Shown: positions 58,779-64,000, counted from the first letter of the stretch. The stretch is DNA of 64,000 bases from Thermodesulfobacteriota bacterium (GCA_049322355.1 JBMORG010000001.1:114337-178336), one strand, 5' to 3'. The notes: generated by a model not told the origin, from the letters alone. Numbers and translations: made by a program.

Positions 58779-59423
58779 ATGGTTGGGAAAACAGAATTTG
58801 AACTCTCTTTAACGGATTGGGCAACAATTATGCCATCTGCCTTTCAAGAAACGCTGGAGCCTTCGGGTGCCTTAGCCGAAAGGCTGGCAGGGCTGACCAA
58901 TGTCTCGACCTGCTACCAGTGTAAAAAGTGTTCCAGCGGCTGTCCCCTGACCTTCGCCATGGATTTCTACCCGGACCAAGTTATCCGGCTGGCACTGTTG
59001 GGTCAGGAAGCCCAGGTGTTGGGCTGCCGGACCATCTGGGTCTGCTCTTCCTGTGAAACCTGCACCACCCGCTGCCCCAATAACATTGATATCGCGGGGG
59101 TCATGGATTGGCTCAAGGAAGCAGCCCTTCGGCAGGGATTCTCTTCTCCCCAACCAGCGGTCACCCGCTTCCACCAGACCTTTCTGGACACGGTGCGTCT
59201 GTCCGGCGGACGCTTGTCGGAACCAGTGCTCCTGGGCCTCTACCAATGGCGGCGCGGGGGAACTCTCCATAAGCTCAAGTCCGGCGATTTGGTGGAGGAT
59301 CTTAAAATGGCCTGGGAACTGGCCCGGCGCCGCCGGCTGATGCCCAAGCTGCCCCACCGGTTAAAGGGCGTCAAGGAAATCAAGGACATCTTCAAAAAAA
59401 CCCGGACACAGGAAAAGCCGTGA
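58779..59423 (+). CDS. hdrC: heterodisulfide reductase subunit C-like
   Basis: Two ferredoxin-type motifs, CYQCKKCSSGCP and CSSCETCTTRCP. Overlaps hdrB (GTGA). The ATG at 58830 is an alternative start. Confidence 0.82.
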   Translation: MVGKTEFELSLTDWATIMPSAFQETLEPSGALAERLAGLTNVSTCYQCKKCSSGCPLTFAMDFYPDQVIRLALLGQEAQVLGCRTIWVCSSCETCTTRCPNNIDIAGVMDWLKEAALRQGFSSPQPAVTRFHQTFLDTVRLSGGRLSEPVLLGLYQWRRGGTLHKLKSGDLVEDLKMAWELARRRRLMPKLPHRLKGVKEIKDIFKKTRTQEKP

Positions 59424-60271
59424 AAGTAAGCTATTATCCGGGCTGTTCCCTGGAAGGAACTGCCATCGATTATGCCGCCTCCATCGGAGGCGTTTGCGGG
59501 CTCCTCAATGTGGAGTTGGCGGAATTACCGGACTGGAATTGCTGCGGCGCCACCGCGGCCCACAGTATCAACCACCAGTTGTCCCTGGCTTTGCCGGCTC
59601 GCAACCTGGCCCTGGCAGAGGATGCCGGCCGCGACGTGGTGGTGCCCTGCGCCCTGTGCTTCAACCGCCTCAAGGTGGCGGAGAAAGCCCTTCTTGGCCC
59701 AGAAGGCGCTCATATCGGAGTACCCTATGGGGGAGGCATCAAAGTCTGGGACCTGTTGGACTACCTTACCCAGGACGCCTATCTCAAGGATTTGGGCCCC
59801 CGGGTGGTGAAGCCCCTGAAAGGTCTTAAGGCAGTGGGCTATTACGGCTGTCTGGTGGCCCGGCCCCCGGCCGTCACCGACAAACAGGATGCTGAAAATC
59901 CCCAGAACCTGGAGCGGCTCCTGAAAGTTCTGGGCGCCGAGCCCCTGGACTGGTCCTTCAAGACCGACTGCTGCGGCGCCGGCCTGGCCGTGGCCCGCCC
60001 GGACATCATCGATACCCTGGTGCAGCGTCTCTACGAGCGGGCCTTGCGGGCCGGGGCCGAGTGCCTGGTGGTTTCCTGCCAGATGTGCCAGGCCAACCTG
60101 GACATGCCCCAGAAACGCATCGCCAAGAAGTTCGGCAAGGATTACTCCCTGCCGGTTTTTTACTTCACCGAACTCATCGGCCTGGCCCTGGGACATCCGG
60201 AAGTCAAGAAATGGCTGGCGGGGCATTTGGTTGACCCGATGCCACTTCTGGAGCGAAAAATCTTGATATAA
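59420..60271 (+). CDS. hdrB: heterodisulfide reductase subunit B-like (two CCG domains)
   Basis: YYPGCSLEGTA...NCCGA and YYGCLV...DCCGAG, i.e. duplicated Cys-rich CCG motifs. GTG start. Confidence 0.85.
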   Translation: MKVSYYPGCSLEGTAIDYAASIGGVCGLLNVELAELPDWNCCGATAAHSINHQLSLALPARNLALAEDAGRDVVVPCALCFNRLKVAEKALLGPEGAHIGVPYGGGIKVWDLLDYLTQDAYLKDLGPRVVKPLKGLKAVGYYGCLVARPPAVTDKQDAENPQNLERLLKVLGAEPLDWSFKTDCCGAGLAVARPDIIDTLVQRLYERALRAGAECLVVSCQMCQANLDMPQKRIAKKFGKDYSLPVFYFTELIGLALGHPEVKKWLAGHLVDPMPLLERKILI

Positions 60272-63300: not shown

Positions 63301-64000
63301 CTCAATCGCGTGGTAGTGGCCTCCTGCAGCCCTCGGACCCATGAACCTCTGTTCCAGGACAACCTGCGAAAGGCCGGCCTTAACAAGTACCTGTTTGAAT
63401 TGGCCAATATCCGGGATCAGGATTCCTGGGTGCACCAGGGCAACCCCGAGAAGGCCACGGCCAAAGCCAAAGAGTTGGTCAGGATGGCGGTGGGCCGGGC
63501 CGCGGTACTGGAGCCTTTGACCGAACTGCCCTTCCCGGTTAAGCAGCGGGCCCTGGTGCTGGGAGGCGGAGTGGCCGGTCTGGTGGCGGCTTTGACCATT
63601 GCCGACGCAGGCTATCGGGTCTATTTGCCGGATATCCAGGAGCGCTTTGGCGGCAGCCTGGCCCATAAAAAGTACTATACCCTGGAAGGGCACGCCATCC
63701 AGCCCTACATGGAGAAACTAATCCGCCAGGTTGAGGAGCACCCCAATATCCGCTGGTGGCCCAATGCCCGGATGACCAGTTTCTCCGGCCACGTGGGCAG
63801 TTTTCGCAGCAAGCTGGAGTTTCCCGACGACCAATGGGAAATCCATTACGGCGCTGTGGTGATCGCCACCGGCGCAGTGGAATACAAGCCCACGGAATAT
63901 CTGTATGGCAGCCATCCCGGGGTTATGACCCAGATAGAGATGGAGAACCTCCTGGTGAATAACCCCGACCAATTGGACGAGTCTCCCACCTGTGTGATGA
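60352..64000 (+). CDS. hdrL: giant HdrA-like flavoprotein with an inserted GltD/NfnB-like NAD(P)H module and a second HdrA-type domain ('HdrL'-type); 3' end beyond the window
   Basis: Not in the ORF track (open at the window end). My translation from ATG 60352 is stop-free for 1216 codons. MDKQSQKIGAVMVVGGGIAGMQASLDAA.., CNACGACAEACP, CVRACPANL..GRICPHPCESDCRR, AIIGAGPSGLSCAY, VVVIGGGNVAMDVAR, VFAGGDVVTG, CINCGACSECMQCVEAC, WIQCVGSRD..YCSYVCCMYAAKQ, RIGVFVCHCGINI, VVVASCSPRTHE, ALVLGGGVAGLVAAL. Confidence 0.8.
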   Translation, partial: MDKQSQKIGAVMVVGGGIAGMQASLDAAAAGYKVYLVEKDISIGGVMAQLDKTFPTNDCSTCLISPKLIEVARHPDIEILTQAEIDKLEGEPGHFAVTIKREPRYIDAAKCNACGACAEACPVSLPSSFDEGLGTRHAAYRHFPQAVPSTFAIKKFDRAPCVRACPANLSAQGYVQLIKAGNYNESLKLIMERLPLPGTIGRICPHPCESDCRRQEVDEPVAICSLKRFAADQADWETLPVPQLPRKNQAVAIIGAGPSGLSCAYHLALQGYRTVIFEAAPDAGGWLRYGIPEYRLPREVLNREVDYLKRLGVELRYNSPIGEGATINDLLSRDGFQAVFIGVGAQESVRLPVPGAEAAGVFWGVEYLKEVNSTGESPTQGKRVVVIGGGNVAMDVARVARRKGAAQVTIIALESPEELPASPWEVAEAKAEGIEILHRWGIKQILNSDGQVTGLELKAVARVFDEQGRFAPTYNEAETTTLDADVVIMAIGQKANLKFLTEADGIHLTPRGLIEADPDTLATSREGVFAGGDVVTGPWIAIGAVAAGREAAISIDRYLQGQDLKAGREVPLKPIKDGNWNPIPPELPQAWREPMPELPQAEWTASFKELNLGFTEAQARREAERCINCGACSECMQCVEACKAGAIAHEQQPLTQTLEVGALILAPGFKTFDAKLKPEYGYGRYPNVITSLEFERLLSATGPCAGHVKRPSDGADPRKIAWIQCVGSRDASIDREYCSYVCCMYAAKQSIIAKEHDPRVEPTIFFIDFRAQGKGFDRYYERARDAHGVRLIRSMISRVTEDPRTHNLELTFVDEDGHIQMEEFDMVVLSVGLRPHPATRKLADVCGIDTDHWGFVKTPPFKMVETSREGIYTCGVYQSPKDIPETVSQASAAAGAAATLLGEVRGTMLTKAEYPAERDITAEEPRIGVFVCHCGINIAGVVDVAQVSDYAKTLPGVVYADHYTFTCATDSLEAMRQVIEENRLNRVVVASCSPRTHEPLFQDNLRKAGLNKYLFELANIRDQDSWVHQGNPEKATAKAKELVRMAVGRAAVLEPLTELPFPVKQRALVLGGGVAGLVAALTIADAGYRVYLPDIQERFGGSLAHKKYYTLEGHAIQPYMEKLIRQVEEHPNIRWWPNARMTSFSGHVGSFRSKLEFPDDQWEIHYGAVVIATGAVEYKPTEYLYGSHPGVMTQIEMENLLVNNPDQLDESPTCVM

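What the first reader, a model, noticed from the sequence alone, without database searches (positions are those of the whole stretch)
58779..64000. hdrC-hdrB followed by a giant HdrA/GltD mosaic flavoprotein (more than 1216 aa, still open at the window end)
Seen directly: the + frame from ATG 60352 has no stop up to position 64000.

Domain order as I read it:
- An HdrA-type FAD N-terminus (VVGGGIAGMQASLDAA) and a 4Fe-4S motif (CNACGACAEACP).
- A complete GltD/NfnB-like NAD(P)H module at about aa 157-560 (CVRACPANL..GRICPHPCESDCRR; AIIGAGPSGLSCAY; VVVIGGGNVAMDVAR; VFAGGDVVTG).
- A second ferredoxin motif (CINCGACSECMQCVEAC).
- The rest of an HdrA core (WIQCVGSRD..YCSYVCCMYAAKQ; RIGVFVCHCGINI; VVVASCSPRTHE).
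- A second HdrA-type Rossmann start near aa 1067 (ALVLGGGVAGLVAAL).

A pyridine-nucleotide module is therefore spliced into the bifurcating flavoprotein. The gene sits behind a CCG-domain HdrB and an HdrC, with no mvhD or hydrogenase gene in view. This would wire NAD(P)H directly into an Hdr-type bifurcation/confurcation or disulfide-reducing complex.

From memory, large 'HdrL' proteins have been noted in genome analyses of sulfate reducers, but I know of no biochemical characterisation. The physiological disulfide or partner is open; MetVF, 14 kb upstream, lacks its own hdrA/mvhD.
Basis: partly seen in the sequence, partly recalled or inferred. Interest (0 to 1): 0.72.

Follow-up and report, generated by a model that had tools for sequence, protein, structure and literature searches.

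The report
NADH-linked Hdr module of methylene-tetrahydrofolate reductase
The giant flavoprotein is real, but it is a familiar protein: the large NADH-oxidising HdrA ("HdrL") of the Hdr-type methylene-tetrahydrofolate reductase of the Wood-Ljungdahl pathway, known from Moorella thermoacetica, here in a Desulfobacca-like bacterium and cut off by the window end.

Summary

The ORF is not a chimera. The 120 best database relatives are mostly 1470-1518 aa and collinear, so about 280 residues lie beyond the window.

The architecture matches the published description of Moorella thermoacetica HdrA (1487 aa): a thioredoxin-reductase-like unit interrupted by a GltD module, then a second HdrA unit. That protein has been produced and shown to oxidise NADH.

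In 7 of 8 close relatives with downstream DNA, and in cultured Desulfobacca acetoxidans, the gene is followed directly by mvhD-metV-metF. Two relatives share about 8 kb of upstream synteny with the window.

The cluster is therefore most likely the 5' half of a type IV (MetFV-HdrABC-MvhD) methylene-THF reductase operon. It sits in a window that also carries fhs, metVF, cooS and nfnAB.

The nucleotide site lacks the NADPH-binding YRR motif (ALES instead), which favours NADH.

Verdict: a new member of a known kind. The enzyme's third substrate is still unknown, but this window does not make that question easier to test.

The parts
58565..58593 (+). Promoter-like sigma-70 site in the AT-rich 380-bp intergenic region upstream of hdrC. 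This is a consensus match only.
   Evidence: TTGACT-17-TAATAT, 9 of 12. No sigma-54 consensus lies upstream of hdrC. Sequence.
58779..59423 (+). hdrC-like gene (214 aa) with two [4Fe-4S] motifs (C45/48/51/55 and C89/92/95/99).
   Evidence: Fer4_8, Fer4_17; CoB_CoM_SS_C 4.5e-16, below the equivalog cutoff. Orthologues lie upstream of hdrB-hdrL in L002, L009 and L003 and L067.
59420..60271 (+). hdrB-like gene (283 aa) with two complete CCG domains (10 Cys), the motif pattern of the two non-cubane [4Fe-4S] clusters of HdrB.
   Evidence: PF02754, 2 stretches; TIGR03288 5.6e-42, 144 bits, below the cutoff of 345.
60286..60335 (+). Perfect 15-bp inverted repeat (19-nt spacer) between hdrB and hdrL, 16 nt before the ATG. 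It is a stable RNA hairpin with no T-run.
   Evidence: the arm sequence occurs only at these two sites; dG -35 kcal/mol, z -5.2; no terminator-like site; no Rfam match. Not conserved in orthologous spacers.
60352..64000 (+). hdrL / large hdrA: the first 1216 codons of a gene of about 1490 codons, cut by the window end.
   Evidence: Full-length orthologues are 1488 aa (L005), 1503 aa (L002) and 1503 aa (D. acetoxidans P0061).
60352..60819 (+). aa 1-156: the start of thioredoxin-reductase-like unit 1 (FAD Rossmann GGGIAGM, C59/C62) and the first half of the inserted ferredoxin domain (C111/114/117/121).
   Evidence: orthologue residues 25-169 align to HdrA 5odc_A 146-290, with no gaps in the printed alignment..
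60820..62226 (+). aa 157-625: the GltD/NfnB/StnC-like module. It has Fe-S Cys (C161/165, C204/208/212, C224), an FAD Rossmann (IGAGPSG) and a nucleotide Rossmann (GGGNVAMD). The beta2 end reads ALES where NADPH enzymes have YRR.
   Evidence: Fer4_20, Pyr_redox_2. (PRK12771 above cutoff); 9bov_A 1.4e-112, 8oh5_C, 4ylf_B and 5jca_L, with alignments showing YRR versus ALES.
62227..63066 (+). aa 626-905: an RCxxC stretch plus the second ferredoxin motif (C626/629 and C632/635/638/642), then the rest of TrxR-like unit 1, including the bifurcation-signature residues E695 and K748 and the CVGSRD...YCSYVCC cluster motif.
   Evidence: alignment to 5odc_A 292-511, with E356 mapping to E695 and K409 to K748. 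Published Moorella positions are E696 and K750.
63118..63531 (+). aa 923-1060: the HdrA N-terminal (MvhD-like) domain with its Cys cluster (C932, C934, C967, C992).
   Evidence: orthologue residues 937-1103 align to 5odc_A 2-168 (2.3e-55)..
63532..64000 (+). aa 1061-1216: the start of TrxR-like unit 2 (Rossmann LGGGVAG, signature E1198). There is no Cys between 993 and 1213, so this unit has no inserted ferredoxin domain. The rest (K about 1240, the end of the TrxR domain, the C-terminal 2x[4Fe-4S] domain) lies beyond the window.
   Evidence: FAD_binding_2 at 1067-1104. (E1198; K1240 in L005).. (Fer4_9 at 1413-1460 in L005). (domain 4).
43026..44638 (+). Stand-alone metV (43026-43697) and metF (43718-44638). 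This is a second methylene-THF reductase core in the same window, with no hdrA or mvhD beside it. It is a possible alternative partner, not the adjacent one seen in relatives.
   Evidence: PF12225, PF02219.. (50-62% identity to the hdrL-linked metVF of other orders; 31-47% to the Desulfobaccales hdrL-linked metVF).

Best explanation
hdrC-hdrB-hdrL is most likely the first half of a Hdr-type ('type IV', MetFV-HdrABC-MvhD) methylene-tetrahydrofolate reductase operon of the Wood-Ljungdahl pathway, in a Desulfobaccales-like bacterium. The remaining genes (mvhD, metV, metF, then two further hdrA-like genes) most likely start about 0.9-1.3 kb beyond the window end.

Shown:
- The window protein has the domain order published for M. 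thermoacetica HdrA.
- It carries the Glu/Lys pair that marks bifurcating HdrA flavins in unit 1 (E695/K748) and the Glu of unit 2 (E1198).
- Its nucleotide site lacks the NADPH-phosphate-binding arginines.
- HdrB and HdrC keep all cluster cysteines.
- Orthologues are followed by mvhD-metVF.

Inferred mechanism. NADH reduces the FAD of the GltD module. Electrons pass through that module's two [4Fe-4S] clusters into the split ferredoxin domain of HdrA unit 1. In methanogen HdrA, this domain is the one responsible for ferredoxin binding. From there they pass through the HdrA flavins and clusters, HdrC and HdrB to MetV and the FMN of MetF. MvhD provides a side port to a third, still unidentified redox partner (ferredoxin, flavodoxin or a quinone-linked carrier).

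Inferred direction. In an acetate-oxidising, Desulfobacca-like organism the reaction would run in reverse: methyl-THF oxidation (E0' -200 mV) would be made to reduce NAD+ (-320 mV) by co-oxidation of the low-potential partner (confurcation).
For: Architecture.

Published description of Moorella HdrA (1487 aa, the same domain order, E696/K750 and E1204/K1246, NADH:BV 190 U/mg, 2 FAD) and of the copurified six-subunit complex.

Synteny:
- Seven of 8 loci whose HdrL is at least 77% identical to the full-length reference L005 and which have downstream DNA (L001, L002, L005, L006, L007, L009, L013) carry mvhD-metV-metF-hdrA-hdrA/mvhD.
- D. acetoxidans DSM 11109 has hdrD-hdrC-hdrB-hdrL-mvhD-metV-metF-hdrA-hdrA/mvhD-hdrCB.
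- L002 and L009 share the order baeRF-GAPDH-Usp-histidine kinase-hdrC-hdrB-hdrL with the window at 68-88% protein identity.
- Across 36 collinear full-length loci from many phyla, mvhD is the next gene in 26 of 32, and mvhD plus metV follow in 16 of 26.

Pathway context in the window: fhs, metVF, cooS and nfnAB.

NADH preference: ALES in place of YRR; D. acetoxidans reads LES.

Poudel 2018 already lists D. acetoxidans MetF (AEB08698) as part of a putative bifurcating Met complex.
Against: - The window ends inside hdrL, so mvhD-metVF are not seen here. The source contig could not be found.
- One close relative (L003) has mvhD-mvhD and other genes downstream instead.
- Paralogous HdrL copies (55-71% identity) in the same MAGs have no metVF.
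- hdrCB is adjacent in only 9 of 29 loci with enough upstream DNA, and is absent from the whole L005 locus.
- The Moorella protein was compared through its published description, not by direct alignment; it was not among the 120 listed hits.
- Even for Moorella, NADH-to-methylene-THF electron transfer has not been demonstrated, the third substrate is unknown and tested ferredoxin did not work. [quoted passage not shown]
Confidence: 0.78

Rival explanations
1. The complex is an NADH-dependent protein-disulfide (DsrC-type) reductase. HdrL feeds NADH electrons through HdrC to the intact CCG site of HdrB, which reduces the 'bacterial heterodisulfide' DsrC or a similar thiol/disulfide. This links NADH to sulfite reduction, possibly by bifurcation or confurcation with ferredoxin.
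For: HdrB keeps all ten CCG cysteines. In S. fumaroxidans an HdrABC/HdrL cluster (Sfum_0819-0824, with no metVF mentioned) was abundant only with sulfate, and a DsrC link was proposed. In D. autotrophicum HdrL1-MvhD is followed by dsrABC. HdrL paralogues without metVF exist.
Against: The window protein groups at 80-88% identity with the metVF-linked orthologues and shares upstream synteny with them. No dsr genes were found among the window ORFs that were scanned (31.5-64 kb). The DsrC proposal is itself speculative in the cited papers.
Confidence: 0.1
2. The gene identification is the same (type IV MTHFR), but the chemistry differs. The third partner is a membrane quinol or quinone rather than ferredoxin. 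The enzyme sits at the membrane through MvhD and either confurcates NADH plus menaquinol onto methylene-THF or, in reverse, passes methyl-THF electrons to NAD+ and menaquinone.
For: For Moorella, ferredoxin was not the second acceptor, and a quinone or reduced menaquinone has been proposed. In S. ovata the MTHFR subunits are partly membrane-associated, with MvhD 75% in membranes.
Against: No membrane subunit is encoded in the window cluster or in the orthologous clusters examined. No transmembrane helices were reported for the Sporomusa or Moorella subunits. In S. ovata NADH was not oxidised in the H2:methylene-THF assay.
Confidence: 0.25
3. HdrCB-HdrL in this organism works with the stand-alone MetVF at 43026-44638, instead of or in addition to an adjacent copy.
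For: That MetVF has no hdrA or mvhD of its own. It is 50-62% identical to the MetVF encoded directly after hdrL-mvhD in Desulfobacterales, Spirochaetota and Leptospirales loci. That is closer than its 31-47% identity to the Desulfobaccales hdrL-adjacent MetVF.
Against: It lies 14 kb away and is separated by unrelated genes. Stand-alone MetVF enzymes are functional by themselves as ferredoxin-dependent type II MTHFRs (abstracts of PMC8515935 and PMC8760232). Orthologous clusters carry their own metVF.
Confidence: 0.12
4. The giant ORF is an assembly or sequencing artefact that fuses separate hdrA and gltD genes.
For: None beyond the unusual size.
Against: Most of the 120 best hits in each of two searches are collinear proteins of about 1450-1520 aa. 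They come from many independent assemblies, including complete genomes of cultured strains.
Confidence: 0.01

Closest known systems
HdrA of the MetFV-HdrABC-MvhD (type IV, Hdr-type) methylenetetrahydrofolate reductase of Moorella thermoacetica (Mock et al. 2014, as described in PMC9430772, PMC5861303 and PMC13040438)
   Same: - The domain order is the same: an Fd domain plus a TrxR-like unit interrupted by a [4Fe-4S]/FAD/NAD(P)H GltD domain, then an MvhD-like domain, a second TrxR-like unit without an inserted Fd domain, and a C-terminal Fd domain.
- The length is the same: 1487 aa against 1488-1503 aa in full-length orthologues.
- The signature residues fall at nearly the same positions: E695/K748 and E1198/(K1240) against E696/K750 and E1204/K1246.
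- The gene order hdrC-hdrB-hdrA is the same, with mvhD-metV-metF following in orthologues.
   Different: - The host is a member of the Desulfobacterota (an acetate-oxidising, sulfate-reducing lineage) rather than an acetogenic Firmicute, so the physiological direction is probably the reverse.
- Desulfobaccales clusters carry two extra hdrA-like genes, and in D. acetoxidans also hdrD-like and second hdrCB-like genes.
- Identity to Firmicute homologues is about 48-50%.
- The Moorella sequence itself was not aligned here.
HdrL of Desulfobacterium autotrophicum HRM2 and Syntrophobacter fumaroxidans (Strittmatter 2009, PMC2702500; Sedano-Nunez 2018, PMC5947623)
   Same: A large HdrA/glutamate-synthase fusion with an NADH site, co-located with mvhD, in Desulfobacterota. 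The name fits.
   Different: - Those loci are linked to dsrABC, fdh or hdrABC rather than metVF.
- Several of those proteins contain selenocysteine, whereas the window ORF has no in-frame stop.
- No biochemistry exists for them.
HdrA of methanogen MvhAGD-HdrABC (PDB 5odc, 8rvu, 7bkb)
   Same: Every HdrA domain is recognisable at E-values down to about 1e-183. The cluster motifs are kept, as is the E356/K409 pair next to the bifurcating FAD.
   Different: - The order is permuted and duplicated.
- A GltD module is inserted in the ferredoxin domain of unit 1.
- NCBIfam HdrA and HdrA2 equivalog cutoffs are not reached (730.8 against 1100; 507 against 1400).
- No hydrogenase or CoM/CoB context is present.
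NfnB/GltD-type NAD(P)H:Fe-S flavoprotein modules (T. maritima NfnB 4ylf_B, P. furiosus NfnI 5jca_L, StnC-type 8oh5_C/9bov_A)
   Same: The fold-level sequence match covers the whole module (1e-74 to 1e-112). The Fe-S cysteines and both Rossmann motifs are conserved. The alignment with the 8oh5_C/9bov_A type is collinear, including the C-terminal 'RCxxCG' tail.
   Different: The module is an internal domain of HdrA, not a separate subunit. The YRR NADPH-phosphate site is replaced by ALES.
BamE of class II benzoyl-CoA reductase (Geobacter metallireducens), as mentioned in PMC9430772
   Same: An HdrA homologue with two flavin sites, both carrying the bifurcation signature. Tandem bifurcation has been proposed for it.
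   Different: This rests on literature only and was not compared here. The partner enzymes differ, and no GltD insertion is described for it.

Membership tests
Type IV (Hdr-type) MTHFR, MetFV-HdrABC-MvhD | A large HdrA with a GltD-type FAD/NAD(P)H/[4Fe-4S] module inserted in the first TrxR-like unit, plus a second HdrA unit | tested here: met
   Matches the published description of Moorella HdrA. The C-terminal 270-290 aa are seen only in orthologues.
Type IV (Hdr-type) MTHFR, MetFV-HdrABC-MvhD | hdrC and hdrB encoded with hdrA, with complete cluster-binding cysteines | tested here: met
   The order hdrC-hdrB-hdrA is as described for Moorella and Sporomusa (hdrCBA).
Type IV (Hdr-type) MTHFR, MetFV-HdrABC-MvhD | mvhD, metV and metF in the same transcription unit | tested here: inconclusive
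   These genes are not in the window, which is cut at aa 1216 of hdrL. They are present directly downstream in 7 of 8 close orthologous loci and in D. acetoxidans. The source contig is not retrievable.
Type IV (Hdr-type) MTHFR, MetFV-HdrABC-MvhD | NADH-specific diaphorase activity of HdrA, and physical association of the six subunits | not testable with these tools
   There is only a sequence hint: ALES in place of the NADPH-binding YRR.
HdrL (Strittmatter et al. 2009) | HdrA / glutamate-synthase small-subunit fusion with an NADH site | tested here: met
   definition.
HdrL (Strittmatter et al. 2009) | Followed by an mvhD gene | tested here: inconclusive
   The position is beyond the window. 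mvhD is the next gene in 26 of 32 full-length loci.
Methanogen ferredoxin:CoB-CoM heterodisulfide reductase HdrA / HdrA2 (NCBIfam equivalogs NF041778, NF041891; exception model NF040770) | Whole-protein score above the curated cutoff; single collinear HdrA | tested here: not met
   730.8 against 1100, 507 against 1400 and 485 against 1300 bits; the match is split into 4 stretches. HdrB and HdrC are also below their equivalog cutoffs.
NfnB / GltD small-subunit family | Fer4_20 plus two Rossmann folds; NADPH-binding YRR(T/S) after beta2 of the nucleotide domain | tested here: not met
   The fold and Fe-S motifs are present (PRK12771 at 533.7 bits, above the 516 cutoff). However, gltA and gltD equivalog cutoffs are not reached (321 against 472; 265 against 483), and YRR is replaced by ALES. 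It is a domain, not a free NfnB. A genuine nfnAB pair lies at 38047-40364.
Bifurcating HdrA flavin site (Appel et al. 2021 criterion, as quoted in PMC9430772) | Glu and Lys equivalent to E356 and K409 of M. thermolithotrophicus HdrA | tested here: met
   Unit 1: E695 and K748. Unit 2: E1198 in the window, K1240 in orthologue L005. The signature is a predictor, not proof of bifurcation.

The most novel reading that the evidence does not exclude
In complete-oxidising Desulfobaccales the enzyme may run backwards as a confurcating methyl-THF:NAD+ oxidoreductase. The long-sought third substrate of type IV MTHFRs may then not be ferredoxin. It could be a thiol/disulfide carrier (DsrC-like) or another low-potential partner, handled by the intact HdrB CCG site and by the lineage-specific extra genes (hdrA-like, hdrA/mvhD-like, second hdrCB, hdrD) that follow metVF. 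With two signature flavins in HdrL, this would be a tandem bifurcation machine that links C1 oxidation directly to sulfate respiration.
Probability: 0.12. Interest if true: 0.7.

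Novelty: new member of a known kind. Interest (0 to 1): 0.3.

Why it matters
The Hdr-type methylene-THF reductase is the least understood step of the Wood-Ljungdahl pathway. A 2026 paper still states that its third redox partner is unknown (PMC13040438). The energy balance of acetogens, syntrophic acetate oxidisers and acetate-oxidising sulfate reducers depends on that step.

This window adds one more orthologue, from a Desulfobacca-like lineage in which the enzyme presumably works in the oxidative direction. It also corrects the reading of the gene as an orphan NAD(P)H-Hdr hybrid. It does not open a new route to the problem: cultured D. acetoxidans and Moorella already carry the same cluster.

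Tried and rejected
- Recovering the source contig to see the missing 3' end. Exact-protein look-ups of HdrB (with V or M as first residue) and HdrC found nothing. An exact 40-mer from the window end found nothing in metagenome contigs.
- Aligning the Moorella protein directly. The Mock 2014 paper is not held. A second protein search, seeded with a Desulfotomaculum orthologue, listed many Desulfotomaculia but not Moorella among its 120 rows. The comparison therefore rests on the published description.
- Terminator or riboswitch reading of the 60286-60335 hairpin. There is no T-run and no terminator-like site, no Rfam family, no copy elsewhere in the window and no conserved counterpart in orthologous spacers. 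It is recorded as a lineage-specific intercistronic hairpin of unknown role.
- A sigma-54 promoter upstream of hdrC, suggested by the sigma-54 activators upstream of the cluster in L005 and D. acetoxidans. No consensus site was found there.
- QmoA/QmoB identity for the two hdrA-like genes downstream of metVF in relatives. Only HdrA and HdrA2 models hit.
- Structure prediction was considered and not run. The fragment exceeds the single-protein length limit, the output reports no coordinates or cofactors, and the sequence matches to solved HdrA and NfnB-type structures are already decisive.

Full report
OBSERVATION. The three reading frames are as described. hdrC-like is at 58779-59423, and hdrB-like is at 59420-60271 (GTG start, overlapping hdrC by 4 bases). 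A + frame from ATG 60352 runs without a stop for 1216 codons to the window end.

Pfam and NCBIfam give this order:
- FAD Rossmann at aa 11-48 and Fer4 at 105-123.
- Fer4_20 at 158-235 and Pyr_redox_2 at 251-548. NCBIfam PRK12771 'NAD(P)-binding protein' scores 533.7 bits, above its cutoff of 516.
- HdrA core at 624-903.
- A second FAD Rossmann at 1067-1104.

HdrB has two CCG domains with all ten cysteines. HdrC has two CX2CX2CX3C motifs.

NOT A CHIMERA, AND TRUNCATED. Most of the 120 best database relatives are 1470-1518 aa and cover 97-100% of the query. A second search from a Desulfotomaculum orthologue gives the same picture, including cultured Desulforamulus, Desulfoscipio and Pelotomaculum. 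The alignment to the Desulfobacca acetoxidans protein (65% identity) has 3 gaps in 1211 positions. Full-length orthologues are 1488 aa (L005) and 1503 aa (L002, D. acetoxidans). About 270-290 residues are therefore missing here: the rest of the second thioredoxin-reductase-like unit and a C-terminal 2x[4Fe-4S] domain.

ANATOMY. Alignment to solved structures resolves the mosaic. Positions are in window numbering.
- aa ~11-155 correspond to HdrA (5odc_A) 146-290. This is the start of the TrxR-like domain and the first half of its inserted ferredoxin domain.
- aa ~158-640 correspond to the NfnB/StnC-type module (9bov_A 101-574, 1.4e-112; T. maritima NfnB 4ylf_B, 2.8e-82).
- aa ~631-850 correspond to HdrA 292-511. 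This is the second ferredoxin motif and the rest of the TrxR-like domain.
- aa ~923-1090 correspond to HdrA 2-168, the N-terminal MvhD-like domain running into a second Rossmann.

So the pyridine-nucleotide module is inserted inside the ferredoxin domain of HdrA unit 1. In the methanogen enzyme that domain is responsible for ferredoxin binding (PMC9430772).

Unit 2 has no cysteine between residues 993 and 1213, and therefore no inserted ferredoxin domain.

The Glu/Lys pair used to recognise bifurcating HdrA flavins (E356/K409 of M. thermolithotrophicus) maps to E695/K748 in unit 1. In unit 2 it maps to E1198 in the window and K1240 in orthologue L005.

In the nucleotide Rossmann, the NADPH-dependent homologues read YRR(T/S)..EMPA. 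The window reads ALESPEELPA and D. acetoxidans reads LESRDEMPA. By the usual rule for this fold, loss of the two arginines and gain of a Glu favours NADH. This is an inference from established knowledge of dinucleotide-binding folds, not a test.

WHAT IT IS. The literature already describes exactly this protein. Kremp et al. 2022 (PMC9430772) describe HdrA of Moorella thermoacetica as follows:
- It is 162.8 kDa, with residues numbered to 1487.
[quoted passage not shown] - The E/K pairs are at 696/750 and 1204/1246, within 1-6 residues of the positions found here.

That protein was produced heterologously, contained 2 FAD and oxidised NADH with benzyl viologen (190 U/mg). It copurified with HdrB, HdrC, MvhD, MetV and MetF as the methylene-THF reductase of the Wood-Ljungdahl pathway. 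This enzyme is now called the type IV MTHFR.

GENOMIC EVIDENCE FOR THE PARTNER. A scan of one genome per species returned 65 related loci. I located the partner genes in them by tblastn.
- Loci whose HdrL is at least 77% identical to the full-length reference L005 and which have downstream DNA number 8. Seven of them (L001, L002, L005, L006, L007, L009, L013) have mvhD, metV, metF, an hdrA-like gene of about 420 aa and an hdrA/mvhD fusion of about 680-700 aa directly after hdrL. Pfam confirms FlpD, DUF5981 (MetV) and MTHFR for L005.
- The exception, L003, has two mvhD genes and other hdr genes downstream.
- The complete genome of cultured D. acetoxidans DSM 11109 has hdrD-like, hdrC, hdrB, hdrL (1503 aa), mvhD, metV, metF, hdrA-like, hdrA/mvhD and hdrCB-like in one block. 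Poudel et al. 2018 had already counted its MetF as part of a putative bifurcating Met complex.
- L002 and L009 also share the upstream order baeRF-GAPDH-Usp-histidine kinase-hdrC-hdrB-hdrL with the window at 68-88% protein identity. It is therefore very likely, though not shown, that mvhD-metVF begin soon after base 64000.
- Over all 36 collinear full-length loci, mvhD is the next gene in 26 of 32 and mvhD plus metV follow in 16 of 26. These loci come from Desulfobacterota, Firmicutes, Spirochaetota, Verrucomicrobiota, Planctomycetota, Lentisphaerota, Asgard archaea and others.

The rest of the window fits this reading. It carries nfnAB (38047-40364), fhs (40806-42596), a stand-alone metVF (43026-44638) and cooS (45529-47520).

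HOW IT MOST LIKELY WORKS. The shown facts are the domain order, the cofactor motifs and the gene neighbourhood in orthologues. The rest is inferred.

Inferred path: NADH reduces the FAD of the GltD module. Electrons pass through its two [4Fe-4S] clusters into the split ferredoxin domain and the flavin of unit 1. They then move on through the N-terminal-domain cluster, unit 2 and the C-terminal ferredoxin domain to HdrC, HdrB, MetV and MetF. MvhD acts as a port for a third partner.

The reaction proposed for Moorella is 2 NADH + methylene-THF + Fd(ox) -> 2 NAD+ + methyl-THF + Fd(red), with dG0' about -5 kJ/mol. In a Desulfobacca-like acetate oxidiser the reverse (confurcation) would let methyl-THF (-200 mV) reduce NAD+ (-320 mV).

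Caveats from the literature:
- NADH-to-methylene-THF transfer has never been reconstituted.
- The ferredoxin that was tested did not serve as the second acceptor.
- Quinones have been proposed instead.
- In Sporomusa the subunits associate only loosely and partly at the membrane.

RIVALS.
1. An NADH:DsrC-type disulfide reductase, as speculated for S. fumaroxidans and D. autotrophicum. This is possible for the metVF-less paralogues found in the same MAGs (L008, L027, L014). It is less likely for this copy, which belongs to the metVF-linked group.
2. The same enzyme with a quinone as third partner.
3. Partnership with the stand-alone MetVF 14 kb upstream. Curiously, that pair is 50-62% identical to the MetVF found after hdrL-mvhD in other orders, but only 31-47% identical to the Desulfobaccales hdrL-adjacent MetVF. 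This cannot be excluded.
4. An assembly artefact. This is excluded for practical purposes.

THE HAIRPIN. The 60286-60335 inverted repeat has perfect 15-bp arms (dG -35 kcal/mol, z -5.2). It has no T-run and no Rfam match. Orthologous hdrB-hdrL spacers show no conserved counterpart; they range from 34 bp in D. acetoxidans to about 500 bp with an inserted small ORF in L009 and L013. It does not argue against co-transcription, and its role is unknown.

VERDICT. This is a new member of a known kind: the hdrCBA half of a type IV MTHFR cluster. Interest is modest. The enzyme class still holds an open biochemical question, but this window adds nothing that the cultured D. acetoxidans or Moorella clusters do not already offer.

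Noticed in passing
window 38047-47520: A Wood-Ljungdahl gene block: nfnB (38047-39528, -), nfnA (39510-40364, -), fhs (40806-42596, -), metV (43026-43697, +), metF (43718-44638, +), a PIN-domain gene (45007-45411, +) and cooS (45529-47520, +).
   Followed up: partly
window 43026-44638, compared with L019, L021, L022, L031, L032, L035, L057 and with L001, L002, L005-L007, L009, L013: The stand-alone window MetVF is 50-62% identical to the MetVF encoded after hdrL-mvhD in Desulfobacterales, Spirochaetota and Leptospirales loci. It is only 31-47% identical to the MetVF after hdrL in Desulfobaccales loci. Two MetVF lineages therefore exist, and both are found attached to HdrL.
   Followed up: partly
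window 53993-55582: A Rieske [2Fe-2S] + FAD/NAD(P) reductase + Reductase_C fusion gene. It is absent from the otherwise syntenic regions of L002 and L009, so it looks like a local insertion between the Usp gene and the histidine kinase gene.
   Followed up: no
L008 and L009 (same MAG); L006 and L027 (same MAG); L002 and L014 (same MAG): Single genomes carry two or more HdrL paralogues. The copies that are 55-71% identical to the L005 reference (58-68% to the window protein) have no metVF beside them, and L008 has no co-oriented gene downstream at all.
   Followed up: partly
L034, L037-L044, L046, L048, L050, L054, L056, L059, L060: Desulfocapsaceae and Desulfobulbaceae loci hold a shorter relative in a different order. 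The segment matching HdrL residues about 918-1152 lies upstream of the segment matching residues 11-932. In most of these loci it is followed by an MvhD-type segment, and in several by a second, GltD-less HdrA.
   Followed up: no
L026 (Promethearchaeota chromosome CP070831.1), L058, L061 (Heimdallarchaeota): Asgard archaeal genomes encode collinear HdrL homologues (38-45% identity). In L026 the gene is preceded by hdrC and hdrB but has no mvhD or metVF hit nearby.
   Followed up: no
L009 about 9740-10250; L013 about 795-1285; also the 5' ends of hdrL in L002 and L003: In the orthologues L009 and L013 the hdrB-hdrL spacer holds an insertion of about 450 bp, similar in both loci. In these loci the spacer opens with GGGTTCTGGG-type repeats, and the 5' end of hdrL carries AACCCAGAACCC-type repeats (also seen in L002 and L003), which appear to add a repetitive N-terminal extension.
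   Followed up: no
L066/L067 20309-21604 (D. acetoxidans): The second hdrC/hdrB-like gene at the end of the cluster is called as one 431-aa product in the NCBI record and as two products (226 + 185 aa) in another assembly of the same sequence. This could reflect an in-frame stop or selenocysteine codon.
   Followed up: no
window 50819-51970: A bacterial archaeo-eukaryotic release-factor-like (baeRF family 3/7) gene, conserved in synteny with GAPDH and Usp in L002 and L009.
   Followed up: no
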